A stretch of DNA of 64,000 bases from Trypanosoma brucei (lineage: Eukaryota): positions 2,944,001 through 3,008,000 of the forward strand of contig CM000208.1 in the NCBI GenBank assembly GCA_000002445.1, written 5' to 3'. Each line of letters begins with the position of its first letter. Positions within the stretch are counted from its first letter, which is position 1. Shown here one piece after another: positions 8,383 to 52,553 of the stretch. Position numbers and translations under genes: made by a program. The notes beneath the pieces were generated by a model. That model was not told where the DNA came from. It ran no database searches and saw nothing but the letters and a program-made list of their open reading frames with translations.

Positions 8383-8479
8383 ATTAAATGTCCTTGAGCA
8401 AACCTAAAGGCAAAAGGAGGTAAACGATGTTCCCTGGTCTTTTTTGTAGATCCGCCAGGTGCGTGCAGCCCTTGACTGC

Positions 8480-14630: not shown

Positions 14631-14693
14631 ACCACCACCACCACCACTACCACCACCACCACCACCACCAAAAAAACAAACAAACAAACAAAG
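14631..14693. repeat. (ACC)13 followed by (CAAA)n microsatellite
   Basis: accaccacca... at 14631-14670, then aaaaaaacaaacaaacaaacaaag. Confidence 0.9.
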
Positions 14694-18183: not shown

Positions 18184-18290
18184 TTGTATATTCCTTTGGC
18201 CTTTACTACCTTAGATGTTACAAGTCTTCGGGAAGGGAAGAAACGAGTGCACAAGTCAGTGTTTCAGCAGTTGCACGACACCGGTTAATT
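15505..18290. repeat. Tandem duplication unit (copy B) of the H+-ATPase locus; period about 3712 bp
   Basis: Near-identical to 19217..22002. Homology includes about 105 nt upstream of the ATG and ends inside the last ~20 codons. Confidence 0.9.
18230..18247 (-). promoter_or_regulatory. Candidate polypyrimidine tract (coding-strand CTCGTTTCTTCCCTTCCC) with downstream AG; putative SL trans-splice acceptor region for ATPase copy B
   Basis: A purine run on the + strand 45-65 nt upstream of the ATG, conserved identically upstream of copy A. The kinetoplastid trans-splicing model needs a poly(Y) tract followed by AG. No experimental support. Confidence 0.35.
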
Positions 18291-31700: not shown

Positions 31701-34700
31701 CAACAGAACCTCAACAAAACGGAGCTTAGTCAGGGGGCTGCCGCTTTCAGCAGAAAATTCCCGCTTTAGAGACAGTGGGATGACGCCACGGAAAACAGCG
31801 GGAAACTTTTATAGTTATTAAAGCTGGTCCACCTTCGATACAGCATAAAGAACAATTTATAGGGGGTGCACACTGAAAACCCCCGCAGGTTTTTGCTTTC
31901 AAAAAAAAGAGAAAAAAACGGGTTGTCTACGCTTTCGGAAACTATGCGCAGTTCAACCTCGCCTACGGGTAAAAGGATGTGTTGATGGTGGCTGAAAAAG
32001 CGAATGTTGCTGTAACATCTGTTGTTTGCCTGGTGCGCATGAAAACGACCCATAGTGGAAACGGCTGTTTTTCATTCATCGCAGAAAGGAGGGTGTTAAA
32101 TAAAACAGCTGTGAGAGCGTGCGGGAAGATACACTTCAAAACTGCTAATGGATGGGACAAAGAAAAGCTCCGTGCTTTACTGAGGTAATTATTTGTAGCG
32201 CGCCCATTATCGATCCCTGTCCCAATATCATAAGGGGCGCCCGCCAGAAAAAAAGGAAGAAACCGCAGGGTTTTGAGGATACGTATGTGCAGTGTACCGC
32301 CAAGAATCCAACAGCCGCAAGGATGCTCATTCATAGACCCGGAAAACTCCCTATTTAGACGTTTTGCGAGCGCCAAACCGGCAAAATCAAAAGAATAATA
32401 AAGCAGATAAAACGGTAGCGAGGGAGAGATTGACTGCGAGAGGTTAAGGGTGACATTTACCGTCGCTTTAAAATTGCCTCCAAAGATGAGGCAGAGTTTT
32501 CTGAGATGTGGAGGAGATGGGCCACCATACAAGCCCTTGAATAAAACAAACCCACGGAGGACATGAGGTCACTTTTTACGATCACACAGGGCGCTGCAAC
32601 GTACAAGCTCACGGGCGAATGGCATTTGGGACGTCTCGAGGCTGTGCGCAGGAGGAGGCGTAGCTGCAACGACCAGGCCCACAACCATCGGGGACGCACT
32701 ACTAACTCCTTTGAAGGGGTGGAAACCGCAATGGAAGCAGAGGAAAACTATGCCCGCAGCGCGGCAGCGCTTGTAGAGCGCGCAAGAACATTTGATCCGG
32801 TGGACGAAAGCTCTACCACTAGTGAGCTGGAAAAAAAAGTTTCACAGCCAACTGAGCAGCAAAGGCCAGCAAACAGCATGTTGTCAGGGTGTGTGGTTTG
32901 GTGCGCCGCGTTCCTCAGGCATTGACGTTATACCCCATTTTCTATCGCAGCGGCAAATAAGCCGAGCATAGAACCCGAGAAGAACCTGAGATTCATGCAT
33001 GGTTTATTCGGTGATGATATGAACGGTACAGCAATGAGTTCAGGCAATGCAAAACCGAGGGATGCGGTACAGCAAGGAATGGAGCGTGTTGATCAACGGC
33101 CTTCGGAACAATACATTATACGTCTGGGGAAAAGACGGGGCACACGGCACTTGGATTGGGCACTTCGAACCCACCAAGCCTTACAGTGGCGAGAAAACAT
33201 GGCAAACGATGCCAAGACCCAAAAGCCATTGACTCTCATGCTGCAGCCGTTGAAAGAAGTATTGAAGCATGCTTAACAAACGACAAGATTAGGAAGGACA
33301 AGATTACGGACGCTCAATGCCGTAGTGTTAGCTGAACGGTGCTCCACGGAAGAAAGCGTTTACAGCCTTCCACTCTGGACTTATCCACGCAAGGATGAAC
33401 TACGACGTTGCTTTTAAGTGATTTTCAGTCTCCACTTCAAGCGGGGAGAGGGTGGAAAGCATGCAACCCCGGCAACGCATGCGATTGCCGAGATTTCGTA
33501 GCACGCAAAACAAGGTGTGCCCAAATAAACTCGACTGATATTTGTTTGGAAGGCGGCAAACACGAGGGCGACGGAACACCGCCCCATGTCAAACGCTAAA
33601 AGAGGATGCTTTTCAGACATAATAAACCGGCAATATCCTAGAAGTCATCCAATACCTGAATGGCTGAATTCAGTGGAGGGATGGTGCTCCGAAACCGAAA
33701 ATCAGGGTGCACTCCATACTTAAAGCTCCTTGGACGTTGGCTCCGGAAAATAAATTTCCCTTCCGTGGGAGGGTATGAAAGCAAACGCAACAGACGAATG
33801 GAGGAGGGTTCCTGCGCTGCAAAAAATAGGGATATTCAGTAAGAAGGACTGAAAAGTTTCAACAAATGAACTGGTGAGTTTAGGCAGTTAGTCCACTGCA
33901 GAAACGATAATCTTCGGCAACACGGAAAAACACAGAATTAAAGGGATACCGGAAGATGGGCATGCGGCCATCGTGCGGAAGCAGCTCCAATGGAAATGGG
34001 GTTGAATAAAGTACTGGAAACAATGAAAGACCGAGTCGCGCGGAGGATGGAATCCCGAGCCGCGTATGGAAGGGTGATTTTCACAGCCAGTAAAAAGAAT
34101 GAGGTGATTTCTATGCAGCTTATTTTCTCCCACCGTGTTGTTTGGAAAGAGAGTGCAATAGCAGATGAGATTGCAGTGAAAGAAGCAACTGCAGAAAGAC
34201 ACACCTAATATATAAAGTTGATACATTGGTGGGAAAAATAATGCAGAAGCACAAAGAGGAATACGCTACATTCGAAATTGGATTAGGGCGAAACGCGCAT
34301 CGAAGCGATCTTCTCGCCCGTATTCTGCCGGTACCCATGACGGCTCAACTCACTAAAGTGGAGAAAATCATCTTTTCATCATTCCGTGCCTACACACCCC
34401 TAAGCATCTTCGGTGATACCGAAGGAGGATCACCCATAATAAGCGCGGTCGTGAGTGCAAAGCCGCGGCAATCAACAGGAAGAGGCGGGAGGAAGACACC
34501 CTCCCCCCCAAATATATTTGAAAGAGTTGGGCACAACGTGGCCACACTTCCCGAACTTGTAGAAGAGAGGGTCTGTAACTCGGACACCTTCTGTGCATGC
34601 ACTAAACCCTTTTAATACAAGGCACGGTGGCACACCACATGGGAAGAACTGAAAAGACGTTTTGAGGTCCCTCGTGAATGCACCCGGCGCCATATACGGT

Positions 34701-34934
34701 GTCTCGTTCGCATAGCAGTCCTCAGAAGCGTGACCGGGGATTGTGTGCAGAGATGGGGGTGAGTGGGCAAAGATTGCAGAATAGAGGGGTAGAAAAAAAA
34801 ATCGAAGCAGGCGATAAGGATTCATCACTTAGAATTTACTGGGTCACGGTTAGACCAAATGTTTACCGACCAAGACTATGATCAAAGCAACATACGACCA
34901 ACAAACACCTGGATAAAACTGCTGGAGCCACGAA

Positions 34935-34970
34935 ACACACACACACACACACACACACACAGAGAGAGAG
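34935..34970. repeat. (AC)13(AG)5 compound microsatellite
   Basis: Seen directly. Confidence 0.9.
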
Positions 34971-35850
34971 GTGCGTGGCTACTAGAGATATAGGCTTGTC
35001 GAAATTAAACTGGCCACCAATGCGGACGCCGGCAGAAGCATGTCGAGGCCCCCCAAGTCCAGCAAATTAATATTCTTGTTCAAGCACCGGATTACCGCTA
35101 GGCGCCGCCAGGGGTTCGAAGAGAAGCGTGCTTGATCTCGACGTTGGTAACTGCAAATTTCAAATGCGTTGCAGAGAATGCAGTTGAAGGGTTGGCACCC
35201 GGTGTCTGGAGGACCATCACCCCCGCCACCAATCTGCGGCGATTGCCCAACTGATCCCGTGCCCCGGCTGCCAACCAATCCCTGCAGCTTCCCTCTCCAC
35301 TTATGATAGTACATTTCGCAACTCACATACGATCGGGTTGTGCGTTCCCTACTTTCAAGGTCCCTACTGCACAGTTTTTTGCGTACAGCTACCAACTGGC
35401 CTGAATAGAGTCTCTGGATATTGACATTGAAATACAAAAACTGCCTACCCTTTATTATGGTAAACTCACCGACCCGTGATATTCGGGCGTCGAACATTCA
35501 CTGCGGAATCAAAAGTCACTTTACCACTAAGCACCACATCCATTGAGCCTTTTTAAAGGGGGGATGCCGACCTCCCCGCGGGTGCAGACGCCCACGGCAC
35601 CGCAATGATCATTTTGTTGACACCAGAGAATAATGTCACTACGTAAAAAGGCAAGGGTGTAGAATGTAGCACGAGTATTAAGCGATAAAAATAATTTCAG
35701 AACCAATTTCCATTCACTTCCCTCCCTTTGTCCGCAACCAAAAAAATTATAGGCAATATATATATTTCTTCATAACTACACATATGTCGCCCCCCTCCCC
35801 CCAAGCAGTGGTCTCTCAGGCACGTGCTCATCGGTTGATCTATTTATCTG

Positions 35851-38652
35851 CTACAACCAGAGTTCGTTCCTATCTGGGTTTAGCGAGTGAGTGAGATCAT
35901 TCAATGTGTGAAGCTGAACCTCACCCTTCTCGAACCCAAATACCACCATACGGCTTTCCGCCTTTGCCTCTGGTGGCGTGTCAAAGCAAGTGCAAATACC
36001 GGCGTTCGTCTGGGAAAGGGATTGCGAAAAAACGGGCAGTTCCCTTTCCCCCTTCGCCAAATCAAGCAAATAAAACATACCACCTGCGTCCAAAACCCAG
36101 TACAGCCACTTGTCCATTAGACTGCAGCGAATTTCAGTAACACGATGAGTGCTAAGGGGAATAGATATCTGTGGACTACCCTCGGTGTGCAGATACACCC
36201 TAACACTGCCATCATCGTACCCGACCATAAGGATTCTGTTATCCACAGGATTGTATTGCACACACGACGGCACAACAATGGGTTGATTAAAAAATCGCGA
36301 GGAGGGCCCGTAAACTGATGGCGCGGCCACACTACCGAAACGGCTAATGTGACGCACCCCCTCGGCGCACGCCACGACGTAATGAGACGGATCGGACGGC
36401 ACAAAATCAATGGCAAATGCTTCCTGCGATAGCGATGCTGAGTTTGCACGATCGCTGCCTTTGGACGCCGCCAATAGCAGTCGAACGGTGGAGAACATGT
36501 TCAATCCATTTTCATTATCAATGATGGCGCCCTTCGCCTGATCCTTTTCATTCACGACCCAAAAGTGTGTCTCACCGAAGGCATCGAGTGAAACTAGTTG
36601 TTCAGCTTCATCTTTCCGTATGCCCGTTGCTGTGTTGTACCCTGCAACAGTAACCGAAACCAACGGTGCCAAGTGATTACCTGCTTGCCACGATGTTGAG
36701 AAGGAGGGAAGACGGAATCTATGTCCTTCATAACGGCCGGCTGTCGTATGATTTCTCTCCGGCTCGCGGGTGTCCCATAAAAAAACAGAACCGTCTTCAG
36801 ACCCACCATAAATCAAGTAGGGTTTTCGCGGACTTGCGGATATACACGTGATCACTGATGGTGAGACAAGTACCTTCTCTGGTGCAGTGTTGTCATATAT
36901 ACTCCAGAGGAGAATCACTGACATGTAACGATCCATCTCCTTGGAGGGCCCTTCCTCCACACACGATCCATGAAGCGCCACTATATAGGTTGGATTGCAG
37001 GGATTAAAGAGGACCTTGAGCACAGGCCTGTTCCGCGCGGCAGAAAAGCAGAAGGAGACACACGATGACGAGAACTGCGTCTCACTTTTTGCCTTTGTTG
37101 CATCCGAACCCACTCCCTCGTTCTCATCCATAGCAGCGCGGATGATGGGAAAGACGCGGTTCAGAAATCCCGCCAACAGCGCCCCGTCAGCAAACTGCTG
37201 TTGTTGGGTATTTTCTGTCACAGTGCCCCCGTCCGTTCCTCCCTTTCCCGTGGTAAATTGTGCCACGTTATTTGTATGCAACTCTGGGCATAATCCCAGG
37301 TCCCGGGGCACTTCCACCCCGCGGCTTTTTACCCGCACACGCTCCGCTTGCACTCCGACGTCCGTACGATCCTCCTCTGCGGGATTTTGTACGCCTACTT
37401 GTTTACGACCCGACTCCCCAAAGCTTCGGATGTACATGTCATATTGAGATTGCGGCGGCGCATCAACCAGGGCAGCCGCAACATCATCCATATCTACCAA
37501 CCGTCGCAGTGCTGTCGCACGCTGTAAATCTTTGTCAAACTGGGTGACATACCCCTGCCGCTGGAGGTCTTCCGCGGCGAACGCGCTTGTGCCCAGAGGC
37601 CCCGTCGTCGCTTTGGAGTCATTTCCCCGCTTGTTTCGCTTCTCCTCCCGCTCTTTTCTCCGCAGTTCACGGCGTTCAAGTGCTTCTCGTTCTCTCTCTT
37701 CTTCAGCACGGCGTCTCTCATTCTGTTGAGCTGCTTCCTTTGCTTCGTGCGCCGCCTGGCGAATAGCATGATTCTCAGCCGCCATCGCTGCTGCCAGTTC
37801 TTCTGTTTTCTGCCCAGCTACTAGCGCAGTTGTGCGTCCTCGTCTACTTTCCGGTGACACACCTTGCTCATTCCTGGGGGACGCCTGCTTGGCTCCCTTT
37901 TTGTTACTAAGAATATCTTGAAGGTCATCCCCGTCCTCGTCAATGGTCTCCTCCTTTTCCTTTTCCATTTCCTTCTTTCCTTTCTCTTTTTTCTCTTCCT
38001 TTTCCTTGGCCTTGCGCTCAGCACGTTCCTTTTCTTTACGTGCTCGACGTTCTTCCTCTGTCTCGTCACGCTTTGACTTTCGCTCCTTCTCCCCATCATT
38101 CCCAACCTCTTTTTCCTCCTTTTCTTTTTTCTCTTCCTTTTCCTTGGCCTTGCGCTCGGCACGTTCCTTTTCTTTACGTGCTCGACGTTCTTCCTCTGTC
38201 TCGTCACGCTTTGACTTTCGCTCCTTCTCCCCATCATTCCCAACCTCTTTTTCCTCCTTTTCTTTTTTCTCTTCCTTTTCCTTGGCCTTGCGCTCGGCAC
38301 GTTCCTTCTCCTTACGTGCCCGGCGCTCTTCCTCTGTCTCGTCACGCTTTGACTTTCGCTCCTTCTCCCCATCATTCCCAACCTCTTTTTCCTCCTTTTC
38401 TTTTTTCTCTTCCTTTTCCTTGGCCTTGCGCTCGGCACGTTCCTTCTCCTTACGTGCTCGACGTTCTTCCTCTGTCTCGTCACGCTTTGACTTTCGCTCC
38501 TTCTCCCCATCATTCCCAACCTCTTTTTCCTCCTTTTCTTTTTTCTCTTCCTTTTCCTTGGCCTTGCGCTCGGCACGTTCCTTCTCCTTACGTGCCCGGC
38601 GTTCTTCCTCTGTCTCGTCACGTTTCGACTTCGTGGTCGTGTCGTCACCCAT
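35851..38652 (-). CDS. WD40-repeat protein with an N-terminal array of five 46-aa K/E/R-rich tandem repeats, 933 aa
   Basis: The N-terminus is 5 copies of KERKSKRDETEEERRARKEKERAERKAKEKEEKKEKEEKEVGNDGE. The C-terminal half carries WD-like units (GGSEDGSVFLWD, VGYDDGSVRVYL). Confidence 0.8.
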   Translation of the reverse strand: MGDDTTTKSKRDETEEERRARKEKERAERKAKEKEEKKEKEEKEVGNDGEKERKSKRDETEEERRARKEKERAERKAKEKEEKKEKEEKEVGNDGEKERKSKRDETEEERRARKEKERAERKAKEKEEKKEKEEKEVGNDGEKERKSKRDETEEERRARKEKERAERKAKEKEEKKEKEEKEVGNDGEKERKSKRDETEEERRARKEKERAERKAKEKEEKKEKGKKEMEKEKEETIDEDGDDLQDILSNKKGAKQASPRNEQGVSPESRRGRTTALVAGQKTEELAAAMAAENHAIRQAAHEAKEAAQQNERRRAEEEREREALERRELRRKEREEKRNKRGNDSKATTGPLGTSAFAAEDLQRQGYVTQFDKDLQRATALRRLVDMDDVAAALVDAPPQSQYDMYIRSFGESGRKQVGVQNPAEEDRTDVGVQAERVRVKSRGVEVPRDLGLCPELHTNNVAQFTTGKGGTDGGTVTENTQQQQFADGALLAGFLNRVFPIIRAAMDENEGVGSDATKAKSETQFSSSCVSFCFSAARNRPVLKVLFNPCNPTYIVALHGSCVEEGPSKEMDRYMSVILLWSIYDNTAPEKVLVSPSVITCISASPRKPYLIYGGSEDGSVFLWDTREPERNHTTAGRYEGHRFRLPSFSTSWQAGNHLAPLVSVTVAGYNTATGIRKDEAEQLVSLDAFGETHFWVVNEKDQAKGAIIDNENGLNMFSTVRLLLAASKGSDRANSASLSQEAFAIDFVPSDPSHYVVACAEGVRHISRFGSVAAPSVYGPSSRFFNQPIVVPSCVQYNPVDNRILMVGYDDGSVRVYLHTEGSPQISIPLSTHRVTEIRCSLMDKWLYWVLDAGGMFYLLDLAKGERELPVFSQSLSQTNAGICTCFDTPPEAKAESRMVVFGFEKGEVQLHTLNDLTHSLNPDRNELWL
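37950..38640. repeat. 138-bp coding tandem repeat, about 5 copies, near-identical
   Basis: The unit begins TGCTCGACGTTCTTCCTCTGTCTCGTCACGCTTTGACTTTCG... at 38041, 38179, 38317, 38455 and 38593. It generates spurious long ORFs in other frames (37821..38648 -, 37943..38695 +, 38040..38654 +). Confidence 0.9.
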
Positions 38653-38875
38653 AGTTACGTTTTATTTGTCTTCCTTTTTAAGTACCCTTGTGTGAGAATG
38701 CAAATAGGGGAGGGGGAATGATTGTGAGGAAGAAGACAAATAAATGTACACGTGCCCATGTATGCATGAGGTGAAAGTAAAATCCGTAAAAAAGCGCAGC
38801 AAGCAAGCCAAGGGTTACGCCCTTCCCCCGCGGTTATTCACTTTGCACCACACAGCAGTTAAATGATCTCATACG

Positions 38876-40663
38876 CTACGCCACATTATTCCAGCAACTC
38901 GCGATGTGACGTGCACTAACGCCGTGCTGGAAAAGAGCGTAGGAAAGCCATCGGATCTTTTCCCGGTTAGCCTTGTCAATCTCAGAACTGCAACCTGATG
39001 TTGCACTCGCTGCTCGCCTGTTGCCTCCAACCCCTCTTCGCCTACCGCTACCTGTAAGCAAACGTCCTCGATGAAGCACGCTCCGGAGGTGGTGCACAGA
39101 GCCTGGAAAAAATCCCAAAGAGGATAAAAACAACAGCACTTTCATTTCATCACTTGATAGAGTACGACGCGCGGACCCATAAGAGTCGTCTCCCACGCCT
39201 CGTTTAAGGGCATCTACGCCCCAGCAGTCGTAAAGAATCCACGCTAGGACAAGACGCACGTAACCCGAGGCGGATTCGGAACACCTGACGAGAGGACGTG
39301 CTGGACGATCGTTTGGGTTCCAAATTCCATTTCGCCGGTGCACTTTCCTCAGCATACACGATATTAGCGCGCAAAGACTCGCGTTGAACGGAGCAAAAAA
39401 TCGATAGTGGTAATTGACGCTCACATCCGCAAATGACAAATAACTGTCATGCTCCTGCACGACCTCATCCTCACTCGCAGCAGCGGCGAAGGCACCGCGT
39501 ACAGCTTCCCCCATCCGGTTCCATAGCGGTTTATATGGCATTTCGACGGGAGGTAGGCTACAGTAAGGAGAGGTCGTCCTGATGCAGCACAACATGTCTT
39601 CGTCTGGTCGCGTTGACAGTTCACCAAAGACTTCCTCCCATGGGAAAAGACGACCCCGAGCAAGCATATCATGTGTCCAATTGATCTCACTCCCTCCTGC
39701 GTCGGACGGCGTTAATGGGGGGACACCCGACAGCTGGGAGAGGGGGAATCGTGTCTCTTTTAACGCATCAAGCGTGACAGGTAAGGATGGCAGTACCTTC
39801 TGGCGACGCACTGCGACACGATCAGGACCTGCATGAAAAATTGAACCCTGTGTAAACATCTCCCCAACTCCAAACAGTGTGTAAGATACCCAGCGTGGAT
39901 GATACGCTTCTATGACGTAATCACAGTATCGTCGGAACTGCGCCGCCGTCATTTCAAACTTGTGGTCTTCGTGTCTCACGTTGTACGGTAAACCTGGCAA
40001 AGAGTGAGGAGCACCGTTCAACCGCGGTTGAATGCTACCTCCTAACTGACCGGTCACATTACTCTTGGCATTACCAATACCATTTCTATCACGATTGGGT
40101 GTTGTAATGACTACAACCCGCGCACCGCAAGCCGCGGCAAGGTGGGCAAAAAGGACCTCGGTGAAGAGGGGAACATCACTAACATTTATGTGTTCTAACA
40201 CTTCAATGGAGATAACGGCATCATATTGGTGTGATAACTGGGTGCGAGGAACCGCTTCTCCCAGTTGTGTAGCCTCTTTCCCGATTTCCCGTTCCCTTTC
40301 CTTGTCTTCTTCAAACGGAGTGAAGACCGGTGGTTTCGTGAGGTCCCCTTGAACGAACTCAACGTGCATGGGGTGCAGAAGTGCAACGGGGGATGAGAAT
40401 CCTAGTGCTGTTATCGCTTCTTTGGCTTCATGCAACGCCACTTTGTCCAAATCGATCGCGAGCGCGCGACTGAAAGAATGTTCTTGTAACTGGGAGGTCA
40501 GTATATGGCGTAGCAGTCCGCCACTCGAACAACCGGCATCAATGAACGAGCTACACCCATTCTCCCGTAGTAAAGTTTGCACTTTCTGCGCCCGCTGTAC
40601 GTATAATGGCGGGGAAAACGATGGAGTCCACTCGTGGTCACCGCCGTTCCCATATACGGACAT
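38876..40663 (-). CDS. HEN1-like small-RNA 3'-terminal 2'-O-methyltransferase (about 595 aa from the internal Met; ORF extends to 40834)
   Basis: SAM-binding motif I (FIDAGCSSGG). HEN1 metal-binding motifs ISIEVLEHI (compare EVIEHM) and VVITTPNRDRN (compare TPNxExN). The first 57 codons of the ORF are hydrophobic low-complexity and probably untranslated. The start MSVYGNGGDHEW lies at revcomp 40661-40663. Confidence 0.65.
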   Translation of the reverse strand: MSVYGNGGDHEWTPSFSPPLYVQRAQKVQTLLRENGCSSFIDAGCSSGGLLRHILTSQLQEHSFSRALAIDLDKVALHEAKEAITALGFSSPVALLHPMHVEFVQGDLTKPPVFTPFEEDKEREREIGKEATQLGEAVPRTQLSHQYDAVISIEVLEHINVSDVPLFTEVLFAHLAAACGARVVVITTPNRDRNGIGNAKSNVTGQLGGSIQPRLNGAPHSLPGLPYNVRHEDHKFEMTAAQFRRYCDYVIEAYHPRWVSYTLFGVGEMFTQGSIFHAGPDRVAVRRQKVLPSLPVTLDALKETRFPLSQLSGVPPLTPSDAGGSEINWTHDMLARGRLFPWEEVFGELSTRPDEDMLCCIRTTSPYCSLPPVEMPYKPLWNRMGEAVRGAFAAAASEDEVVQEHDSYLSFADVSVNYHYRFFAPFNASLCALISCMLRKVHRRNGIWNPNDRPARPLVRCSESASGYVRLVLAWILYDCWGVDALKRGVGDDSYGSARRTLSSDEMKVLLFLSSLGFFPGSVHHLRSVLHRGRLLTGSGRRRGVGGNRRAASATSGCSSEIDKANREKIRWLSYALFQHGVSARHIASCWNNVA

Positions 40664-42171
40664 TTGAGCGCCTGCATGAAGCGCAGGGGCCGTCAACACG
40701 AACGAGAAGATGATTGAGGAAAGGTGGGGGCGGGAGAACAAAAGTAAATGAGGGCCAACTAAAAAAATATTAATATTGACAGAGAATGCCGCAATAAGTG
40801 AGAGGGAATACAATAATGCATACAGGACGAACAAATAAAGCGAACGGTGCTGTCAGTTAGCAGTGATGGGAGCCCATTCTCACCATCAGCTAGGGAGAAA
40901 TAATGCCGCCCTGGACCGCCGGACGGAGACAAGACTGAACGAAAACAAAAACACATACAAGGGGGCGCTAATGTAAAACGATACACATGCAAAAACCGAA
41001 GGGGAGGAATCCCCCATTAGGATGATTTGGCGTGATGACGGGAGGCGCGTTTGTCCGAAAGACGCACGACCCCCAGAAAAAGAGGGTGAGAAAGAAGACA
41101 ACAACGACAAAATTGAATAGCGTTAAAGCAGAAAGGTGTGTTTTTGTGTTTTTTTTGTGTGCGATGATGGACTAAAGTATTGAAGTGAAAAATTTACAAG
41201 CAGGAGTTTGACCGGCATGCCACATCCCGTCTCATATCCCGTCGGTGTTACTTCACCCCTCGCGTGCTGAACACAAAAACAAAAGCTGTTGGGGTGCACA
41301 ACCAATCACCTTGACAAATATATATATGTATATAAAATATCCAACTAAAGCAACACACCATACAAACTGATAAAAGTGGAAAGATAACATAAATAAGCGT
41401 ATTAATAATTTCATTGCCGCCGAATACGGAAGGTCGATGAGGAAAGGACGGAGTGACGCGAAACGTTGACTGGATTCATTTTTATTCACCACAACTTGAC
41501 CATTCCGGTGGAAAGATCTTAACAAACAGGCAAACTGCTCCATACTCCAAAAGGTCACCCGCCGAGCCCCAATGATGCACCGCGCCATCCCCGCTAAAAC
41601 CCATAAGTGAGCCTCGGCGTCACACGCTCAAGGGAGTTATAAACCAAACAAACATACGCCACCACCCTCACAAAGTTATTTGGAGGCATCAATGAAGCGA
41701 AGACCTGAATTGTTTACCAAGTGCAAACAATCGACATTTCCTTATTCGCCGTGTCCCGCTCACGGCACGCGAGAGGTGGTGAATCTCCGAAAACAAAAAA
41801 AAAACAAAAAAGGAAAAACAAAACAAAAACGTCGCCAAGATCAGTAGCAAAAAACGATGGGTCTCAATCACTCACTGGAAAAGTAGCAGCAAGATAATTT
41901 CAGCAGTTGCACACACAGGAGCGTCCTGACATCCGCATAGACCTACCTTGTACTTTTATTCCCTACCCATGTTTTTTTTTCATCTGTTCTCCCTCCTTTC
42001 CCATGTCAGCAACGATGTTGAACGTAATAGTTTCACCGATGGAGGATCCTTCCCCGACATCAATAGTGATGTGCCACCGCTGTATTGGCATGATGGACGC
42101 GTGCACACACAGACACACACACACACACACACATCATTAGTGATGTAGACACTGCACATCCCCAAAAAGGT

Positions 42172-45100
42172 TTACATACCTCCTTGACCCAAGGGTGCTA
42201 TCGGGTCGTAGAAGCGTTGGCCACGCGAAAGATATGGAGGCACAAAATTCATCATGAACCCCTCATCCTCCCTTAGCTTTTTTGTCGAGTAATGTGCTCC
42301 TTCTGGAGCTCTCCCAGGTCCTGTGGGGTAACACGGGAAGGGAGAAACATCATGCATGTACGGAAAGGTTCCCCCCAAAGGCATTGCGGGTGGCGCTGTG
42401 CAATGGTTTCGCAGAGTGCCTACATTCCTAAAACCAACCCGCATAAGCGGAGTTCCACGTAATAACTGGTTCCGTGTTGACATTGAATTCGCTGTGGGTT
42501 TTCCGTGGACTTGACTCCCCGCTCCTCCCAGCCATGCACCCCCATCTGTGCAATTGGTATGTTGCAAAGGATTTGCGGGAGCTGCGGGTGACAGGGATGT
42601 AGTGGGAGGAGGGCAACTCACAGGGAGTGGACCGGGCACAGTCTTCACCGAATGATAGGAAGGGTGCTGCTGCCTTGGCTGCTGGTTCTTCAGAACTCCA
42701 AGACCAGGATGGGAGATATAAGCATTGTCAGATGGAGTCGACAGTTGGCTGCTTCTCCCTTCAAATTCGTCATTGCTTCCGAGTACCCTTTCCTGGGAGT
42801 CGAAAAGAAACTGTGGTTCCAATACTTGTTGTACATTGGGAACGCAGAAAAATGTTGGTTGCGAACACTGTTTGCAGCTTGTTAGAGCCACACGTGGTCT
42901 TACCGGCAAATGTTCCGGACAGTAACGCTGCACATAGTACAAAGTCTGGCCGAAGAGTTCATGGAGAATGCTGTGCCCCGTCATGTCTACACATCTGTTG
43001 TACGCTGCGGCATCCACCAAATAGTGGCCCAGTGCCCCAGAGAATTGCGGTTCGCGTGTTACACTGCCCGTGACACCGCTACCAAGCCCGCTGCTCGGGC
43101 CCCGAGAAGTCGGCAGAGATTGCGCAAGCTTCGCCGATCCCATTTTAAAAAGAACGAGACCCTCCCGAAAAGCACGATAAATACGCTGAAGGTGGTTGCG
43201 GCAAACGCCCCGACACACACTTGAACCCCACCGCAGCGGATCCATGACATTCATAGTTCGAAGGGGAAAGTTAACTGTGGTTGTCACGGGGCCCGATGCT
43301 CGTCCGCCATCGTCCGCGTGGCCGCGGCTGACGGCATGTTCCTTTCTCGCTTCAGGCGTGAAGCTCTCCGGAGTGTTGCTGCTGGGGTGCGATTTGTTAG
43401 CCTGGGCGCAGGGTGGGAAGTGCCCCGCCTTTCCCCGTTGAGGACGGTGACTTTCCTGTGATAGCATCCTCTTTAATTCCCTGGGAGTTATGAGCTGCTT
43501 AGCACGTCGGCGAAGGCAATGCCCCAACGCCTCCTGACCTTCGGCTGTTAGACCAAACACAGCTGAGCCGCCAGGTTGTTGGAAGTGCTCCACCTGTGAC
43601 TCAACAAGATCGAGGTCTAATGGCACATTATTTATTTTGTCGCACGGAACAGGACCAAACAACGTGAGGCAGTAACTTTCAAAGTCAAAATAACTGAAAT
43701 ATTTGAGGAAGCGCGCAAATAACTGAAGCGGCGAGATGTGTTGATATTCTCCACGCTGCCTCTCCTCCAGATGTTTTCCGTCGCCTTCACCGCCTCGCTC
43801 TTCCCGTTCCACATCTTCAAGAAACTCAACAGTGTTTATCATAGAAATAATCATCACAGTAGCCGCGTAGGAGGATATGTACCCTCCCTGGCCACTGAGA
43901 ACATGCGCCTCGTAGCAGCACCACGCTTTCATCAGCAGCAGAGTTCGCTTCAAAAGGTGGTTACATCCGATCTTCATGTCCATCTCGTGCAAAAAACGTA
44001 TGCAACTGACACCCCCAAGTTGCCCTACCGTTATATCGTAGCTGCTTCCGTCCATTACAAGCTTTAAGACACGAACTTCAGCAACAACAACAGTGTCGAC
44101 ATACACAGACTTGTTGTTTTCCCGAAGGTAGTCCGCCACGCTCGAGAGCAATTCACCACCCGCAACAGTGGTCGCTTGAGACGATGTGCCGCTGATGCTA
44201 CTGCTGCAACTACTTCCAGCTGCGCCATCAGAAGAATCAGCATGGGCTTCGCTTTGCGTCTCAATCTTGGTTGGATTCAAAAGCCCGTCCACCTCAATCG
44301 TCATATCGTTATCACCGTCGGGCAGCACAGTCCCTGATGCCAGACTACCAAAAACATAGTACCGTTTTTCCCCATAATTTACCCCCTTTCCCCATGCTAC
44401 ATTATTGATGGCATCATTGAGGTACCCCGCGAGACGGTTCAGTTGCATTCGACGGTGCAGAGCCATCTCCTCAACATTTTTCGACAGGGGCGCAATAACA
44501 TTACTGTCGATCAGCTGGCAGAGCGCCAGCGACACCTCAGGAGTGAAGGTGTAGCTACTAGAATGACTACTAGGAGGGTCGCAGTGTTTCGTTGCTATTT
44601 GTAAACTATCGGCACCGGGACAAAGAAGATCCTTCTGACTCTGGAGGTCGTTTTCCTTCTTTGTTGTGGCGGTAGCACAAGTTTCTCCTACGGGCAATGG
44701 TTTCAAACGCTCCCTCGCCGGACACGGCTGGACTTCACACATTCCTTGCGTTTGAAAATGTATGTCCCCACGTTGCCTTGACTCAACAACTGCACCCCTG
44801 TCCGCCCTTTCCCCGTCCCCCTCCGACGTGCCTCTGCACTTCCCTGGAGGGAGTGGAGGAGATGAGGCAAATGCATGTTCTTCCGTTGGGAGTGATTGTT
44901 TTCCTCCTTCGCCATGGGGTGATGTGCTTGCTGAGCAGTCTGTGGCCGGTGCGGCCAAAGTGGTGCCAAAGTTGCGTGGAGTGGCCTGTGGGTCACCTTT
45001 TGTATCATCTGAGCGGTCACAGTACTGCTCAATGTGGGGTTCCCCCTCCTGAGACAGTGCCATACGCTCGTTTGAGTGTATTGTAGCCGTATCGTCCACT

Positions 45101-45627
45101 TGGCTGTCGTTTTGAGCTTGTCCATATGAACTTAACGTATCTCCACAGGTTGTGGAGCTGTGTTTAGGGGTATCGTCCTCCGTCACCTCCAGGCCTTCCT
45201 TTCGGGACCCAGGAAGTAGTGAAACGTGTAACCTCCCTTCTTTATCCTCCTTACTATGTCGTACACCTACCCCAAGGGGTGGGACGGTGACACAAACACC
45301 CTTTTGGTTTGCACTCACCTCGCTGGGCTGTTGCTGGTTGGAAGTGTGCTCATGTTCGTTCACACTGTTACCTGCAACGTTGGAAACTGTCTCTCCTTCA
45401 CAACGGGTTGCATCTGTGGCAGCCGATCCCCCAGCTGTTTGCTGCCCAGGTTTTTTATCGCTGACAGAGACGATTGCGCCTTTCCCCTTCAAAGACCGTC
45501 GGTTTTGTGTCTGGGTGTTCCTTTTCACGGACATAACAATACTACAGTACAACAATAACAACAACAATACAGACGAATTCTGTAGAAACAAGCGTAAAAG
45601 AAACAACAAAACCGTACTCGTGATCAC
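42172..45627 (-). CDS. Cid1-family non-canonical poly(A) polymerase / terminal uridylyltransferase-like nucleotidyltransferase, about 1120-1151 aa
   Basis: Pol-beta nucleotidyltransferase signature YVFGSLASGTVLPDGDNDMTIEVD (GS...DxD). PAP/OAS1-associated segment GGYISSYAATVMIISMI (compare Cid1 GTLSSYGYVLMVLYYL). Long low-complexity flanks. The true start may be the Met at about 45534. Confidence 0.8.
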   Translation of the reverse strand: MITSTVLLFLLRLFLQNSSVLLLLLLYCSIVMSVKRNTQTQNRRSLKGKGAIVSVSDKKPGQQTAGGSAATDATRCEGETVSNVAGNSVNEHEHTSNQQQPSEVSANQKGVCVTVPPLGVGVRHSKEDKEGRLHVSLLPGSRKEGLEVTEDDTPKHSSTTCGDTLSSYGQAQNDSQVDDTATIHSNERMALSQEGEPHIEQYCDRSDDTKGDPQATPRNFGTTLAAPATDCSASTSPHGEGGKQSLPTEEHAFASSPPLPPGKCRGTSEGDGERADRGAVVESRQRGDIHFQTQGMCEVQPCPARERLKPLPVGETCATATTKKENDLQSQKDLLCPGADSLQIATKHCDPPSSHSSSYTFTPEVSLALCQLIDSNVIAPLSKNVEEMALHRRMQLNRLAGYLNDAINNVAWGKGVNYGEKRYYVFGSLASGTVLPDGDNDMTIEVDGLLNPTKIETQSEAHADSSDGAAGSSCSSSISGTSSQATTVAGGELLSSVADYLRENNKSVYVDTVVVAEVRVLKLVMDGSSYDITVGQLGGVSCIRFLHEMDMKIGCNHLLKRTLLLMKAWCCYEAHVLSGQGGYISSYAATVMIISMINTVEFLEDVEREERGGEGDGKHLEERQRGEYQHISPLQLFARFLKYFSYFDFESYCLTLFGPVPCDKINNVPLDLDLVESQVEHFQQPGGSAVFGLTAEGQEALGHCLRRRAKQLITPRELKRMLSQESHRPQRGKAGHFPPCAQANKSHPSSNTPESFTPEARKEHAVSRGHADDGGRASGPVTTTVNFPLRTMNVMDPLRWGSSVCRGVCRNHLQRIYRAFREGLVLFKMGSAKLAQSLPTSRGPSSGLGSGVTGSVTREPQFSGALGHYLVDAAAYNRCVDMTGHSILHELFGQTLYYVQRYCPEHLPVRPRVALTSCKQCSQPTFFCVPNVQQVLEPQFLFDSQERVLGSNDEFEGRSSQLSTPSDNAYISHPGLGVLKNQQPRQQHPSYHSVKTVPGPLPVSCPPPTTSLSPAAPANPLQHTNCTDGGAWLGGAGSQVHGKPTANSMSTRNQLLRGTPLMRVGFRNVGTLRNHCTAPPAMPLGGTFPYMHDVSPFPCYPTGPGRAPEGAHYSTKKLREDEGFMMNFVPPYLSRGQRFYDPIAPLGQGGM

Positions 45628-46107
45628 TTAAGGAGTGTGGGTGCAGATGAAATAGCTATTTGCCCCAAGAAACTAAGTCTCTTTTTTATAGTATTCTTTC
45701 CCCTATGCGCGTCCTTCTTTGGATGGTGTCTGGCACCCTCCTCTTCTCTTTTCAATGTCTCTGTTTCTCCAGTGCTACAAAAAAAACAAGGCAGCGGAAA
45801 AGTAAGTAAAGGAAACTGGAGCGAATACCCGCACACATGCTAATATGCGGTGTACATGAACGATAACAAAGGGCATTTGCGCATCCGCTAGTGGACACAC
45901 GGCGACAACGGCCGAGGGTGGTTGAAAGAGGGACAAACACTGTTCAAACAGTGGACGGAATTGACACCCCTTAAACTGAAGGATATATAAAAAATTAAGA
46001 CCCAGCGGAAGGGATATTCATATGGGCGCTGCGAACAATGAGAAGGGGAAGCCTGCATGGTGCCTCAGCACCAATCTATGCGCAGGATGCACAACACAAC
46101 TGCTAAA

Positions 46108-46764
46108 CTACATCAAATTCTTCATCTTCTCCAGCACCTCCGGATGCTTTTGCGTGATTAGTCTCATATCCTCTGGCCGAATGCGTCCATCCTTCCGGAC
46201 ATCTAGAAACATCATAAGCCGTTGTGCTTCCTCGTTTATGACACGCTTCACCTCCGGATCATCTATATCACAGTCACCAACATACTTCGTTGCTGCGGTG
46301 ATGGTAGTGACAATATCGTTTAGGGAAAGAAACCCATCCTGATCAGCATCGTAGGCATTGAACACAACCACAAAAAGTTCCTCCGTACTGTAAATAACTG
46401 CCAAGTGATACAGAAGGAACTCGCTAAAGGATATAACCCCATCACAATCACGGTCATAACCCCTGAAAAGATGCTCGTACATCTCCGAACTCGATGACCC
46501 TATTCTTTCCCCACCTCCCCCTCCATCCTCTTCTTCACTGTCTTCATCTACATTTTTGAGATACGACTTCGAATGGGTGTGCTTGTATGTTTTAAACACT
46601 TCCGTGCTCTCAATGTAGTGTTTGAAATCCACCGGTGTCATGATACCGTTGGGTGCTGCACGATGGAACTTAAGGAAAAGAAACTCAATCGCGCCGTCAG
46701 AGAAACGACCCTTCACAAGTTCCTTATAATCCTCCATCTGTGCACGCGAGAACGTATAGCCCAT
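46108..46764 (-). CDS. EF-hand calcium-binding protein of the neuronal-calcium-sensor / calcineurin-B-like type, N-myristoylation consensus, 218 aa
   Basis: MGYTFS N-terminus (Gly2, Ser6). EF loops DRDCDGVISFSEF, DADQDGFLSLNDI and DVRKDGRIRPEDM. An acidic/Gly insertion (DEDSEEEDGGGGGE) is present. Confidence 0.85.
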   Translation of the reverse strand: MGYTFSRAQMEDYKELVKGRFSDGAIEFLFLKFHRAAPNGIMTPVDFKHYIESTEVFKTYKHTHSKSYLKNVDEDSEEEDGGGGGERIGSSSSEMYEHLFRGYDRDCDGVISFSEFLLYHLAVIYSTEELFVVVFNAYDADQDGFLSLNDIVTTITAATKYVGDCDIDDPEVKRVINEEAQRLMMFLDVRKDGRIRPEDMRLITQKHPEVLEKMKNLM

Positions 46765-47954
46765 GGTTTACTCTAACAAAGAAACTCGTCAGTAATTCCT
46801 GATGTTGCGAGGTCTTCCCTGCTGTCGCTCTAGCACACACACACACAAAAAAAAAACAACAACACCCGTACAGGAGCAATACGGCCACCAACAATTTCAC
46901 TAAGAAAAAAAAAATAAAGGAAATAAAAGAACCGAGTAGTGCACGTGTGAATTGTGGTTATCAAAGTCGCCTTTTTGGCGAAGGTGGCTCGGGCCTCCCT
47001 TTGGGGCCTTTTCGTGGTGTTAACAACACAGTACCGCCCACATATATAAGTAAATTCATTTGTACAGTTTCGTGAACCTCCCGGCCTCCTTTCGGTTAGT
47101 CGGAACCAATTTGTCGAAGGAAAGGTAAACGCTACTCACACTCAAGTGCAACACCAACATTAAAGGTTACAGATATCTGCCTTTTCAACCCTACACATAA
47201 CTCGTTTCTCAGGTGTTTGTGCGTTCCTACACGCCAAAGACAGCGGTGGAGTCAACGGCGCGGACAAGAGAAAGATAATATGATGCACACCCGCGGATGC
47301 TCTAGTCAGCCGAACCACCACTTAGACATTAACTAAACCAATTAGTACCACTTCATCTAATTTAGGAACCCCAAAAGCAAAAAATACACAACATGCGCAT
47401 GCAATAAACATCCCTCCCCCCATTTGCGCATGCTCATGAGAACATCACGTGGCGCGCCGTTGCTATGAGGGATGCATTACCTGCTGCTTGTATCACCAGA
47501 GCTACTGATATGGAAAGGACCACCCTCTCTTACCTCCTCCCCCAACTGTTGGTGCGGTTTACTATCGTTAATGTATAAAAAGTAAGGAATATGTGTGTGG
47601 GGAGGAGGAGAGAGAAAACAAACAAACAAACAAGCACCAAGTTGAACAATTACTCACAATTACAGCAATGACATTCGAGAACTTGCCATAATCCGCTGCA
47701 ATGTACAAAGATGACCTTGATGCCCAGGTTCTTGTTGCAAGTCACATGCGGCACTGCTCACAAAACCGCACTGCTGCTGTCCCACAAATGTACAAAGTGC
47801 CCCCAACAAAATAGAGAAAAAGAAAATCATGACACACGAAAAAAAAAAACCCAGTATCCATATGGTATGTCTCGAGAACAACGAGGGACAAATCTAAAAA
47901 GCTTGTGAGAAATACAACAAAACCAAGGATAGCACAATCATGGACAAAACCTCC

Positions 47955-52507: not shown

Positions 52508-52510
<3 letters not shown>

Positions 52511-52548
<38 letters not shown>
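52511..52548. repeat. (AT)19 microsatellite
   Basis: Seen directly. Similar (AT)n runs occur at 53063-53082, 60695-60718, 62836-62858, 51073-51090, 51941-51960 and 54179-54196. Confidence 0.95.

Positions 52549-52553
<5 letters not shown>

What the first reader, a model, noticed from the sequence alone, without database searches (positions are those of the whole stretch)
37950..38640. Near-perfect 46-aa x 5 charged tandem repeat at the N-terminus of a WD40 protein
The 138-bp units differ by only a few bases, implying recent expansion or concerted evolution. K/E/R-rich tandem-repeat proteins of trypanosomes are frequently immunodominant B-cell antigens and microtubule or flagellum-associated. 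Repeat number is probably variable between strains and easily collapsed in assemblies. The repeat also creates three spurious long ORFs in other frames.
Basis: partly seen in the sequence, partly recalled or inferred. Interest (0 to 1): 0.5.

Follow-up and report, generated by a model that had tools for sequence, protein, structure and literature searches.

The report
Repeated charged helix in IFT-dynein subunit
The five-fold charged repeat is real and forms the start of the trypanosome version of WDR60, a subunit of the motor that returns cargo along the flagellum; each copy carries an ancient, strongly conserved ~18-residue helix-starting motif, so it is a selected part of the motor's flexible tether rather than recent filler.

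Summary
Observation confirmed. A 138-bp unit occurs 4.7 times (97% match, no indels) on the minus strand. It encodes aa 9-238 of a 933-aa ORF (35851..38652). That ORF is the Trypanosoma brucei-group orthologue of WDR60/DYNC2I1, intermediate chain 1 of the intraflagellar-transport dynein. The human WDR60 match is E=5.8e-40 by sequence and is the top hit by fold. The array lies in the N-terminal extension, which in human cells tethers dynein-2 to IFT-B trains.

Each unit has three parts: a core ETEEERRARKEKERAERK, extra E/K-rich helix, and a VGNDGE hinge. The core recurs in tandem (2-14 copies, periods 19-69 aa) in every kinetoplastid orthologue examined. It also occurs in an acoel (5-6 copies) and once in crinoid and nemertean DYNC2I1. 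All 10 nucleotide differences between T. brucei units are synonymous, and the same holds for the core in two other species. AlphaFold2 predicts five isolated ~30-residue helices, each starting right after the invariant Thr, separated by low-confidence hinges.

The same motif forms arrays in copepod topoisomerase I, so its partner may not be IFT-specific. Antigenicity and strain copy-number variation remain untested. Two short-read assemblies fail at the array.

The parts
35851..38652 (-). Complete CDS (933 aa plus stop) of the T. brucei-group orthologue of WDR60/DYNC2I1/FAP163, dynein-2 (IFT dynein) intermediate chain 1
   Evidence: ORF. Human WDR60 6rlb_C matches at E=5.8e-40 over query aa 26-914, against 1.9e-3 for WDR34. 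Metazoan DYNC2I1 hits at 1e-43 to 1e-32, and Trypanosoma orthologues named 'WDdomain 60'. The Foldseek top hit is 8rgh_C DYNC2I1, E=1.9e-29, TMt 0.76. The start MGDDTTTKSKRDETEEER is conserved in T. theileri and T. cruzi.
37981..38628 (-). Tandem array: four full 138-nt/46-aa units (38491..38628, 38353..38490, 38215..38352, 38077..38214) plus the first 96 nt of a fifth (37981..38076); aa 9-224
   Evidence: TRF; unit register and nucleotide comparison. All 10 variable columns are third-position, synonymous transitions.
38563..38616 (-). Core motif copy 1, ETEEERRARKEKERAERK (aa 13-30). Further copies lie at aa 59-76, 105-122, 151-168 and 197-214, that is 138, 276, 414 and 552 nt lower in window coordinates
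   Evidence: Motif census over 105 distinct units from about 40 orthologues. Motif HMM gives 26-27.5 bits per T. brucei copy. In both AF2 models each helix starts at the residue after Thr14/60/106/152/198.
38476..38523 (-). Hinge 1 (aa 44-59, EVGNDGEKERKSKRDE): predicted non-helical, low-confidence linker; equivalents at aa 91-105, 138-152 and 182-198
   Evidence: AF2 with MSA gives pLDDT below 50 for 44-59, 91-105, 138-152 and 182-198; the single-sequence model gives 46-52, 93-98, 139-144 and 185-191. Linker sequence and length are species-specific: periods of 46, 39 and 43 aa in Trypanosoma, down to 19-24 aa in bodonid-like orthologues.
37939..37980 (-). Diverged tail of unit 5 (aa 225-238, GKKEMEKEKEETID) leading into an acidic patch (DEDGDDLQDIL, aa 238-248); it also gives the small period-6 TRF hit
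   Evidence: Bodonid-like orthologues have DDDFEDGFE at the equivalent place. The resemblance to the human IFT54-binding EDDFEDYEDDFE (residues 375-388, read from the alignment; PMC10987677) is my inference.
37630..37815 (-). Long confident helix aa 280-341 containing the nearly invariant A289, E293 and N294 (AAMAAENHAIRQ). It aligns with human WDR60 about 420-433, inside the 407-433 patch predicted to bind the IFT80 TPR
   Evidence: AF2 helix H280-341, pLDDT about 86-89; phmmer alignment to 6rlb_C; nearly invariant columns; human patch from PMC10987677.
37378..37569 (-). Conserved segment aa 362-425 (DLQRQGY...LRRLVDMDD...PPQSQYDMYIRSFG..KQVGVQ), aligned with human about 470-535, the light-chain-binding region
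   Evidence: human region boundaries (470-630) from PMC10987677.
35893..37095 (-). C-terminal WD40 beta-propeller (about aa 520-920), which binds the dynein-2 heavy chain in the human complex
   Evidence: AF2 strands with pLDDT mostly above 90; Pfam WD40; Foldseek to 8rgh_C/6rlb_C.
37821..38695 (.). Three non-coding 'shadow' ORFs produced by the repeat in other frames: 37821..38648 (-), 37943..38695 (+), 38040..38654 (+)
   Evidence: Their translations are themselves periodic (RKRKRKKKRRKK...; SFSFFSSFSLALRSARS...) and have no independent support.

Best explanation
The repeat is the distal part of the N-terminal tether of the trypanosome IFT-dynein intermediate chain WDR60.

Each 46-aa unit has three parts:
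- An ancient ~18-residue core, E-T-E-E-E-R-[RA]-[AIVLM]-R-K-E-[RK]-E-R-A-E-R. Its Thr and acidic start cap an alpha-helix.
- About 12 more E/K residues that lengthen the helix to about 30 residues (about 4.5 nm).
- A Gly/Asn/Asp hinge of about 16 residues.

Five units therefore give a jointed chain of five isolated charged helices ahead of the conserved IFT-B-binding and light-chain-binding segments and the heavy-chain-binding propeller.

Most likely function (inferred): the chain extends the reach of dynein-2 and presents five identical copies of a conserved helical face. It then makes weak, additive contacts that help load the inactive motor onto anterograde trains at the flagellar base. Copy number and spacer length would tune reach and avidity.

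Shown: gene identity; repeat anatomy; motif conservation and purifying selection; position within the N-terminal extension. Predicted only: the helices. Inferred: tethering, by homology with human WDR60. Unknown: the binding partner of the motif.
For: Identity. Human WDR60 matches at E=5.8e-40 and is the best structural match.

Position. The array lies N-terminal to the AEN helix and the light-chain region, in the region corresponding to human residues 1-470. That extension is needed for dynein-2 function. [quoted passage not shown] Deleting the human 'non-conserved' residues 1-374 gives moderate retrograde-IFT defects with no partner found (PMC10110421).

Motif conservation. There are 2-14 tandem copies in every kinetoplastid orthologue examined, 5-6 in the acoel Symsagittifera, and one each in crinoids and a nemertean. 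Columns not fixed by my search pattern are near-invariant: E-1 105/105, R7 104/105 (0 Lys), K8 104/105. The motif profile finds only 34 proteins at E<=1e-3 among 1.84 billion representatives, and 13 of them are WDR60.

Selection. In T. brucei 10/10 inter-unit differences are synonymous. In T. theileri (3/3) and T. melophagium (11/11) all core differences are synonymous, while linkers change mostly non-synonymously.

Structure. The array is 80% charged and 2.6% hydrophobic with no heptad pattern. AF2 with and without an MSA gives helices 15-43, 61-90, 107-137, 153-182 and 199-239 (block-mean pLDDT about 72-88). The hinges have pLDDT below 50 and there is no packing (single-sequence pTM 0.27).

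Precedent. [quoted passage not shown]
Against: No partner of the motif is known, and none could be tested here because no multimer prediction was available.

The same motif forms 5-10-copy arrays in copepod DNA topoisomerase I: 106 of the 119 best TOP1 hits carry it, including Tigriopus. It also occurs in a zinc-finger-like protein. This argues against an IFT-specific docking site. It fits a generic physical module or a shared regulator.

Vertebrate and amphioxus WDR60 lack a recognisable copy, so the motif is dispensable in some lineages.

AF2 tends to draw helices for E/K/R-rich sequence, so helicity is not demonstrated.

Trypanosome WDR60 has not been studied experimentally in the papers I found; Blisnick 2014 covers DIC5/WDR34 only.
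Confidence: 0.5

Rival explanations
1. Composition-only spacer. The array is an ER/K-type single-alpha-helix or polyampholyte spacer. Only its length, stiffness and charge matter, and it has no binding partner. The motif recurs because it is close to a physical optimum for a stable isolated helix: Thr N-cap with Glu at N3, acidic N-terminus, basic C-terminus, and i/i+4 salt bridges.
For: Composition and lack of a heptad pattern. Isolated helices starting exactly after the Thr. Independent appearance of the same motif in copepod TOP1 N-terminal domains and in a zinc-finger-like protein, consistent with convergence on a physical optimum. Spacer length and copy number vary freely between species.
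Against: Known ER/K helices are usually conserved in composition, not residue by residue (my knowledge). Here Arg and Lys are not interchangeable at adjacent positions: R7 104/105 and K8 104/105. Thr is preferred about 16:1 over Ser. The core is 89-100% identical among Trypanosoma species whose C-terminal regions are about 62-66% identical. Only 34 proteins in 1.84 billion match, although E/K/R-rich helices are common.
Confidence: 0.27
2. Shared regulatory or targeting module. The unit is a recognition site for a general cellular factor used by both WDR60 and copepod TOP1. Candidates are casein kinase 2 phosphorylation of the invariant Thr (T-x-x-E in an acidic context), possibly read by a phospho-Thr-specific domain, or an importin-type receptor, since each unit fits KR-x10-[KR]3of5 like a bipartite nuclear or ciliary localisation signal.
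For: Invariant E-T-E-E-E, Thr far more frequent than Ser, and a basic pair at -4/-3 in most units. Occurrence in a nuclear enzyme's N-terminal targeting and regulatory domain. [quoted passage not shown] The CK2 and NLS consensus patterns are from my own knowledge.
Against: This rests on pattern matching only. Pfam finds no IBB or other domain in the repeat. Importin-alpha binds extended peptides, whereas the unit is predicted helical. No phosphorylation data were retrieved. Highly charged sequence matches such loose consensus patterns easily.
Confidence: 0.13
3. The array is a recently expanded, strain-variable repeat whose main significance is as an immunodominant B-cell antigen, like other K/E-rich trypanosome repeat proteins. 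Otherwise it is a dispensable structural spacer.
For: Near-identical units. High charge and repetitiveness, features typical of tandem-repeat antigens in trypanosomatids (general knowledge; this gene was not found in the literature). Assemblies fail at the array, so copy number could easily be mis-stated.
Against: The array type predates the trypanosomatids and is under purifying selection. Free-living relatives carry it too: the Bodo saltans genome encodes it, as does P0021, which from memory of EukProt strain names I take to be a prokinetoplastid. So host immunity cannot explain it. The protein is an intracellular motor subunit. Antibody reactivity may still occur but would be a by-product.
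Confidence: 0.05

Closest known systems
Human WDR60/DYNC2I1 N-terminal extension (residues 1-470), the flexible tether of dynein-2 to IFT-B (Mukhopadhyay et al. 2024, PMC10987677; Hiyamizu et al. 2023, PMC10110421; Patel-King et al. 2013, PMC3756919)
   Same: It is the orthologous protein. It has the same order of parts: charged repetitive N-terminal region, then acidic patch, then AEN helix, then light-chain sites, then propeller. Human residues 24-328 were already described as repetitive, charged and predicted helical.
   Different: The human region is called 'non-conserved' and disordered and has no recognisable copy of the motif; its closest relic, read by eye from the alignment, is QETRDRQLLERAERK. 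The trypanosome region is a crisp tandem array of one conserved motif with defined hinges. That motif is shared with other protists, acoels, crinoids and a nemertean.
[quoted passage not shown] 2022, PMC9771362)
   Same: It belongs to a paralogous dynein intermediate chain. It is a charged, isolated N-terminal helix followed by disordered linkers and light-chain sites, used as a docking element and subject to multivalency.
   Different: It is a single copy, not an array. The motif HMM does not hit a dynein-1 IC. The partners p150 and NudE are not part of dynein-2 biology.
ER/K single alpha-helix domains (e.g. myosin VI/X, caldesmon; my own knowledge)
   Same: About 80% E/K/R, almost no hydrophobic residues, no heptad pattern, and predicted isolated helices.
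   Different: The helix is interrupted every 46 residues by a Gly/Asn/Asp hinge, and the core is conserved residue by residue rather than by composition.
Tandem-repeat B-cell antigens of trypanosomatids (e.g. GM6 and the T. cruzi and Leishmania repeat antigens; general knowledge, and PMC4363025 for GM6 use)
   Same: A near-perfect charged tandem repeat in a flagellum-related protein of a trypanosome.
   Different: No serological evidence exists for this gene. The repeat is ancient, selected and present in free-living relatives and animals.
N-terminal charged domain of copepod DNA topoisomerase I (found here: P0126 Tigriopus californicus, P0124, P0066 and others)
   Same: It carries the same motif, KETEEER[RKA]IRKEKE[RK], in 5-10 tandem copies at the N-terminus, followed by an acidic-aromatic patch.
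   Different: It is an unrelated nuclear enzyme. TOP1 from Trichinella and a moth lack the motif. Whether the sharing reflects convergence or a common partner is unknown.

Membership tests
WDR60 / DYNC2I1 / FAP163 (dynein-2 intermediate chain 1) | C-terminal beta-propeller closer to WDR60 than to WDR34 or other dynein intermediate chains | tested here: met
   phmmer against PDB: WDR60 6rlb_C 5.8e-40 versus WDR34 1.9e-3 and axonemal ICs 1e-6 or weaker. Foldseek top hit 8rgh_C DYNC2I1, E=1.9e-29, TMt 0.76, rmsd 4.4.
WDR60 / DYNC2I1 / FAP163 (dynein-2 intermediate chain 1) | Conserved light-chain-binding segment and AEN helix N-terminal to the propeller | tested here: met
   LRRLVDMDD..PPQSQYDMYIRSFG..KQVGVQ aligns with human about 495-535, and AAENHAI with human AINAEN. 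Nearly invariant columns A289, E293, N294, L382, D397, Y404, D405 and G412 across 34 orthologues.
WDR60 / DYNC2I1 / FAP163 (dynein-2 intermediate chain 1) | Long, highly charged N-terminal extension that WDR34 lacks | tested here: met
   aa 1-279 precede the AEN helix, and the repeat part is 80% charged. The feature is described for the family in PMC10886578 and PMC3756919.
WDR60 / DYNC2I1 / FAP163 (dynein-2 intermediate chain 1) | Physical association with the dynein-2 heavy chains, and movement with IFT trains | not testable with these tools
   Needs tagging or immunoprecipitation in T. brucei. Blisnick 2014 did this for DIC5, not for this protein.
ER/K single alpha-helix (SAH) | E/K/R-dominated sequence with i/i+4 opposite charges and no hydrophobic heptad | tested here: met
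   E 35%, K 27%, R 15%, hydrophobic 2.6%. My simple salt-bridge score is 0.27 in the array versus 0.02 in the rest of the protein. No register enriches hydrophobic residues.
ER/K single alpha-helix (SAH) | Stable monomeric helix in solution | not testable with these tools
   There are only AF2 predictions of isolated helices. CD or NMR is needed.
ER/K single alpha-helix (SAH) | One long uninterrupted helix acting as a rigid rod | tested here: not met
   Helices of 29-41 residues are broken by hinges with pLDDT below 50 at every unit boundary. The array is jointed, not a rod.
Two-stranded coiled coil | Hydrophobic residues at heptad a/d positions | tested here: not met
   No heptad register places hydrophobic residues at a/d. 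The only candidates are Ala20, Ala27 and Ala31.
Dynein-1 intermediate-chain N-terminal SAH (p150Glued/NudE site) | Sequence relationship to that helix | tested here: not met
   The motif HMM built from 38 units gives no hit on a dynein-1 IC (P0051) even with filters off.
Trypanosomatid tandem-repeat B-cell antigens | High-scoring tandem repeat inside a coding sequence | tested here: met
   TRF score 1215, 4.7 copies.
Trypanosomatid tandem-repeat B-cell antigens | Recognition by sera of infected hosts | not testable with these tools
   Two literature searches returned nothing on this gene. The key screening papers are not in the searchable library.
Importin-beta-binding (IBB) / classical NLS module | Match to the IBB family profile, or demonstrated importin binding | tested here: not met
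   Pfam scan of the whole protein at E<=0.1 lists only WD40/propeller families. The KR-x10-[KR]3of5 pattern is seen by eye only.

The most novel reading that the evidence does not exclude
E-T-E-E-E-R-x-[AIVLM]-R-K-E-[RK]-E-R may be an unrecognised helical linear motif old enough to predate the split between kinetoplastids and animals. It sits in the part of WDR60 that the literature calls 'non-conserved'. It would mediate a specific interaction or modification that matters for loading dynein-2 onto IFT trains, with tandem copy number (1 to about 14) setting avidity. Copepod topoisomerase I would have recruited the same motif, and hence the same partner or enzyme.
Probability: 0.3. Interest if true: 0.7.

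Novelty: new variant of a known kind. Interest (0 to 1): 0.45.

Why it matters
How the inactive IFT dynein is captured by anterograde trains is an open question. The WDR60 N-terminal extension is the element shown to matter in human cells, yet no partner is known for its first ~374 residues, and those residues are regarded as non-conserved. Trypanosomatid WDR60 presents this region in an unusually clean form: a countable number of identical units, each with a conserved core and a variable spacer. The idea can therefore be tested directly in T. brucei, an established IFT model, by changing copy number, spacer length or single core residues.

Practical points:
- The array breaks or mis-joins short-read assemblies.
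- It has produced at least one out-of-frame deposited protein (Bodo saltans) and N-terminally truncated models (T. equiperdum).
- Annotated N-termini of this gene should be treated with caution.

Tried and rejected
- Coiled coil: rejected, because there is no hydrophobic heptad.
- Homology of the motif to the dynein-1 IC SAH: rejected, because the HMM gives no hit.
- Generic low-complexity explanation: tested with a motif profile against 1.84 billion representatives. Only 34 hits reached E<=1e-3, so the motif is specific. It is not exclusive to WDR60, however.
- Strain copy-number variation: the exact 933-aa protein is not in the 15-billion-protein collection. The only T. brucei-group entries are truncated at the array. 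The genome and metagenome DNA collections offered do not cover trypanosomes, so this was not tested.
- Broadening the orthologue set with a C-terminal-only profile: the word index limited it to about 10 new sequences, with no Chlamydomonas or ciliate sequences. The distribution of the motif outside Kinetoplastea and a few animals therefore remains patchy knowledge.
- Literature: I found no TriTrypDB gene identifier, no work on trypanosome WDR60 and no tandem-repeat antigen list including it.
- Pfam gives nothing for the repeat itself.
- Taxon names for most metagenomic hits could not be obtained.
Full report
OBSERVATION. Tandem Repeats Finder reports one strong array at 37978..38631: period 138, 4.7 copies, 97% matches, no indels, score 1215. 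It lies on the minus strand inside a 933-aa ORF, 35851..38652. In protein register the units begin at aa 9, 55, 101, 147 and 193. Units 1-4 are identical in protein. Unit 5 is identical for 32 residues and then diverges.

WHAT THE PROTEIN IS. The best database relatives are Trypanosoma proteins named 'WDdomain 60'. [quoted passage not shown] Against solved structures, human WDR60 (6rlb_C) scores E=5.8e-40 across query aa 26-914, whereas WDR34 scores 1.9e-3. An AlphaFold2 model built with 34 orthologues has a confident propeller. Its best Foldseek match in the PDB is 8rgh_C, DYNC2I1 bound to the dynein-2 heavy chain (E=1.9e-29, TMt 0.76). The window is 99.85% identical to a T. equiperdum contig, so it comes from the T. 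brucei group. All ORFs of at least 250 aa outside the repeat shadow, except one that overlaps a longer minus-strand ORF, are on the minus strand, as expected for a trypanosome polycistron. The upstream methyltransferase-like neighbour is syntenic in T. theileri and T. melophagium.

WHERE THE REPEAT SITS. The phmmer alignment to human WDR60 places T. brucei AAENHAI (aa 291-297) on human AINAEN, about residue 424. That is inside the 407-433 patch predicted to bind the IFT80 TPR. It places aa 362-425 on human about 470-535, the start of the light-chain-binding region (PMC10987677). The array (aa 9-238) therefore lies in the 'N-terminal extension'. In human cells this extension is required for dynein-2 function. 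[quoted passage not shown] Its first 374 residues are described as non-conserved and have no known partner, yet their deletion causes moderate retrograde-IFT defects (PMC10110421). A repetitive, charged, predicted-helical N-terminal region was already noted for human WD60 in 2013 (PMC3756919). Trypanosome WDR60 itself was not studied in the IFT-dynein paper on T. brucei, which covers DIC5/WDR34 (PMC4148251).

THE KEY RESULT: AN ANCIENT CORE MOTIF.
- Every orthologue retrieved carries tandem copies of the same core. T. vivax has 6, T. theileri and T. melophagium 4, T. rangeli 4, T. conorhini and T. cruzi 3, and T. grayi, Leishmania and Phytomonas 2.
- Bodonid-like and other unnamed protist sequences carry 5-14 copies, with periods as short as 19-24 aa.
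- The acoel Symsagittifera roscoffensis DYNC2I1-like protein has 5-6 copies. Crinoid and nemertean DYNC2I1 have one copy each, RDETEEERRKRKEKER and RDETEEERERWKEKER, against T. brucei RDETEEERRARKEKER.
- Over 105 distinct units the consensus is E-T-E-E-E-R-[RA]-[AIVLM]-R-K-E-[RK]-E-R-A-E-R.
- Columns that my search pattern did not fix are almost invariant: Glu-1 105/105; position 7 Arg 104/105 with no Lys; position 8 Lys 104/105. Thr outnumbers Ser 99:6.
- The shortest period, 19 aa, bounds the functional unit. The T. brucei 46-mer is therefore the core plus extra E/K helix (KAKEKEEKKEKEEKE) plus a hinge (VGNDGEKERKSKRD). Spacers differ completely between species but always contain Gly, Pro or Asp.

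SELECTION.
- Among the T. brucei units all 10 variable nucleotide columns are third-position synonymous transitions. With 19% of all possible substitutions synonymous (33% of transitions), the chance of 10/10 is 6e-8 (1.7e-5 for transitions only).
- In T. theileri and T. melophagium every inter-unit difference within the core is synonymous (3/3 and 11/11), while the linkers differ mostly non-synonymously.
- Units are more alike within a species than between species. For example, Val at position 6 occurs in all T. theileri units, and Ile or Met in the internal units of T. rangeli and T. conorhini. The first unit of the T. cruzi-clade species remains orthologous (KL[QR]EQNEAE).
- Concerted evolution therefore acts on an old array whose core is held by purifying selection. 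'Recent expansion' alone does not describe it.

STRUCTURE. The array is 80% charged and 2.6% hydrophobic, and no heptad register places hydrophobic residues at a/d, so it is not a coiled coil. AF2 on the single sequence (aa 1-351) and on the full length with an MSA gives the same picture. There are five isolated helices: 15-43, 61-90, 107-137, 153-182 and 199-239 (block-mean pLDDT about 72-88). In the MSA model every helix begins at the residue after the conserved Thr (in the single-sequence model, units 1 and 5). The helices are separated by hinges with pLDDT below 50 and do not pack against anything (single-sequence pTM 0.27). The T-x-x-E start fits a helix capping box, which is my own knowledge. 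Helicity is predicted, not shown.

SPECIFICITY TEST AND A SURPRISE.
- A profile of 38 units was searched against 1.84 billion representative proteins. It found only 34 hits at E<=1e-3, so this is not generic charged sequence.
- A local search with a profile of the C-terminal region shows that 13 of the hits are WDR60.
- A second group is DNA topoisomerase I (Pfam Topoisom_I_N, 1.5e-98).
- Searching with one of these TOP1 proteins shows that 106 of the 119 best TOP1 relatives carry 5-10 tandem KETEEER[RKA]IRKEKE[RK] units in their N-terminal domain. The closest named relatives are the copepods Tigriopus californicus and, by the 'Tk' tag of its EukProt record, T. kingsejongensis. Trichinella and moth TOP1 have none.
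- A zinc-finger-like protein carries three copies.
- The motif is therefore rare but not exclusive to WDR60. This weakens the idea of an IFT-specific docking site. It keeps open a physically optimal capped helix, or a shared modifier or receptor.

MECHANISM.
- Best supported (confidence about 0.5): the array is the distal, jointed part of the WDR60 tether. It has five helices of about 4.5 nm joined by hinges of about 16 residues. It extends reach and presents five identical conserved faces for weak additive contacts that help load dynein-2 onto anterograde trains.
- Gene identity, repeat anatomy, motif conservation and selection are shown. The helices are predicted. Tethering is inferred from the human orthologue. 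The partner is unknown.
- The rivals are a composition-only spacer (0.27), a shared regulatory or targeting site such as CK2/phospho-Thr or an NLS-like signal (0.13), and the antigen-centred reading (0.05 as an explanation of why the array exists).

- Assembly fragility is supported. The T. equiperdum contig ends at window 38016, inside unit 5, and its protein model starts at Met229. A Logan short-read contig matches the window only from 37997 downward and is joined to unrelated sequence upstream.
- The 'spurious ORF' problem is real elsewhere. The deposited Bodo saltans protein runs out of frame through the homologous repeat, while frame 3 of the locus encodes the true RETDEQRAARKEKERRERD... 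units.
- Strain polymorphism and antibody reactivity could not be tested.

VERDICT. This is a real, selected feature of a known protein family. The charged repetitive N-terminus of WDR60 is known, whereas the discrete conserved motif, its tandem amplification across kinetoplastids and some animals, and its reuse in copepod TOP1 did not appear in the papers I could read. Interest is moderate (0.45): ordinary as 'a repeat in a WD40 protein', but a usable handle on an open question about IFT-dynein loading.

Noticed in passing
L005:601-1500 (Bodo saltans CYKH01001973.1): The deposited B. saltans WDR60 protein (P0046) is translated out of frame through its repeat: KPRRNERNGRPVKRSVTV repeated. Frame 3 of the same DNA reads four proper units, RETDEQRAARKEKERRERDAETPAQREERKAREAERD, and continues into the conserved AVQEENAA / DLQRQKYRQQFEKD region. 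The start MPERRETDEERA is in frame 1, so there is a frameshift or assembly indel near the 5' end.
   Followed up: yes
P0126 (Tigriopus californicus TOP1), P0124, P0066, P0138 and about 100 related TOP1 proteins: Copepod-type DNA topoisomerase I carries 5-10 tandem copies of the same ETEEER..RKEKE motif in its N-terminal charged domain, followed by an acidic-aromatic patch (ELGDDYF). TOP1 from Trichinella and Tuta absoluta lacks it.
   Followed up: partly
L001 (T. equiperdum CZPT02001323.1) and L004 (Logan ERR7929162 contig): Both short-read assemblies fail at the array. L001 ends at window 38016 and gives a 705-aa model that starts at Met229. L004 is chimeric: nt 1-741 are unrelated and carry a DUF543 gene, and they are joined at window 37997. 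L004 also differs by one residue in the propeller (GSVCLWD versus GSVFLWD).
   Followed up: yes
window 38876..40834 (-): The upstream neighbour is a methyltransferase-like protein (Methyltransf_12/23) and is syntenic in T. theileri and T. melophagium (592 and 588 aa). The listed 652-aa ORF starts at TTG. The real start is probably the Met of MSVYGNGGDHEW, at about window 40663, which would give about 595 aa.
   Followed up: partly
window 37630..37752 (-), aa 300-341: A second charged helix, NERRRAEEEREREALERRELRRKEREEKRNKR (pLDDT about 86-89), lies between the AEN patch and the light-chain region. Its Leishmania counterpart (ESAEERAERKRAEREERR) matched the motif pattern, so it may be a degenerate extra copy.
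   Followed up: no
P0063 (EukProt, 4051 aa) and P0080 (417 aa, ENA): P0063 is a fused gene model whose C-terminal part is a WDR60 with 5 motif copies around aa 3100-3300. P0080 is a C2H2 zinc-finger-like protein with three motif copies near its C-terminus.
   Followed up: no
window 1..64000: Apart from two ORFs generated in the repeat's shadow frames (one on each strand) and one plus-strand ORF overlapping a longer minus-strand ORF, all ORFs of at least 250 aa lie on the minus strand. This is consistent with one trypanosomatid polycistronic transcription unit spanning the window.
   Followed up: no
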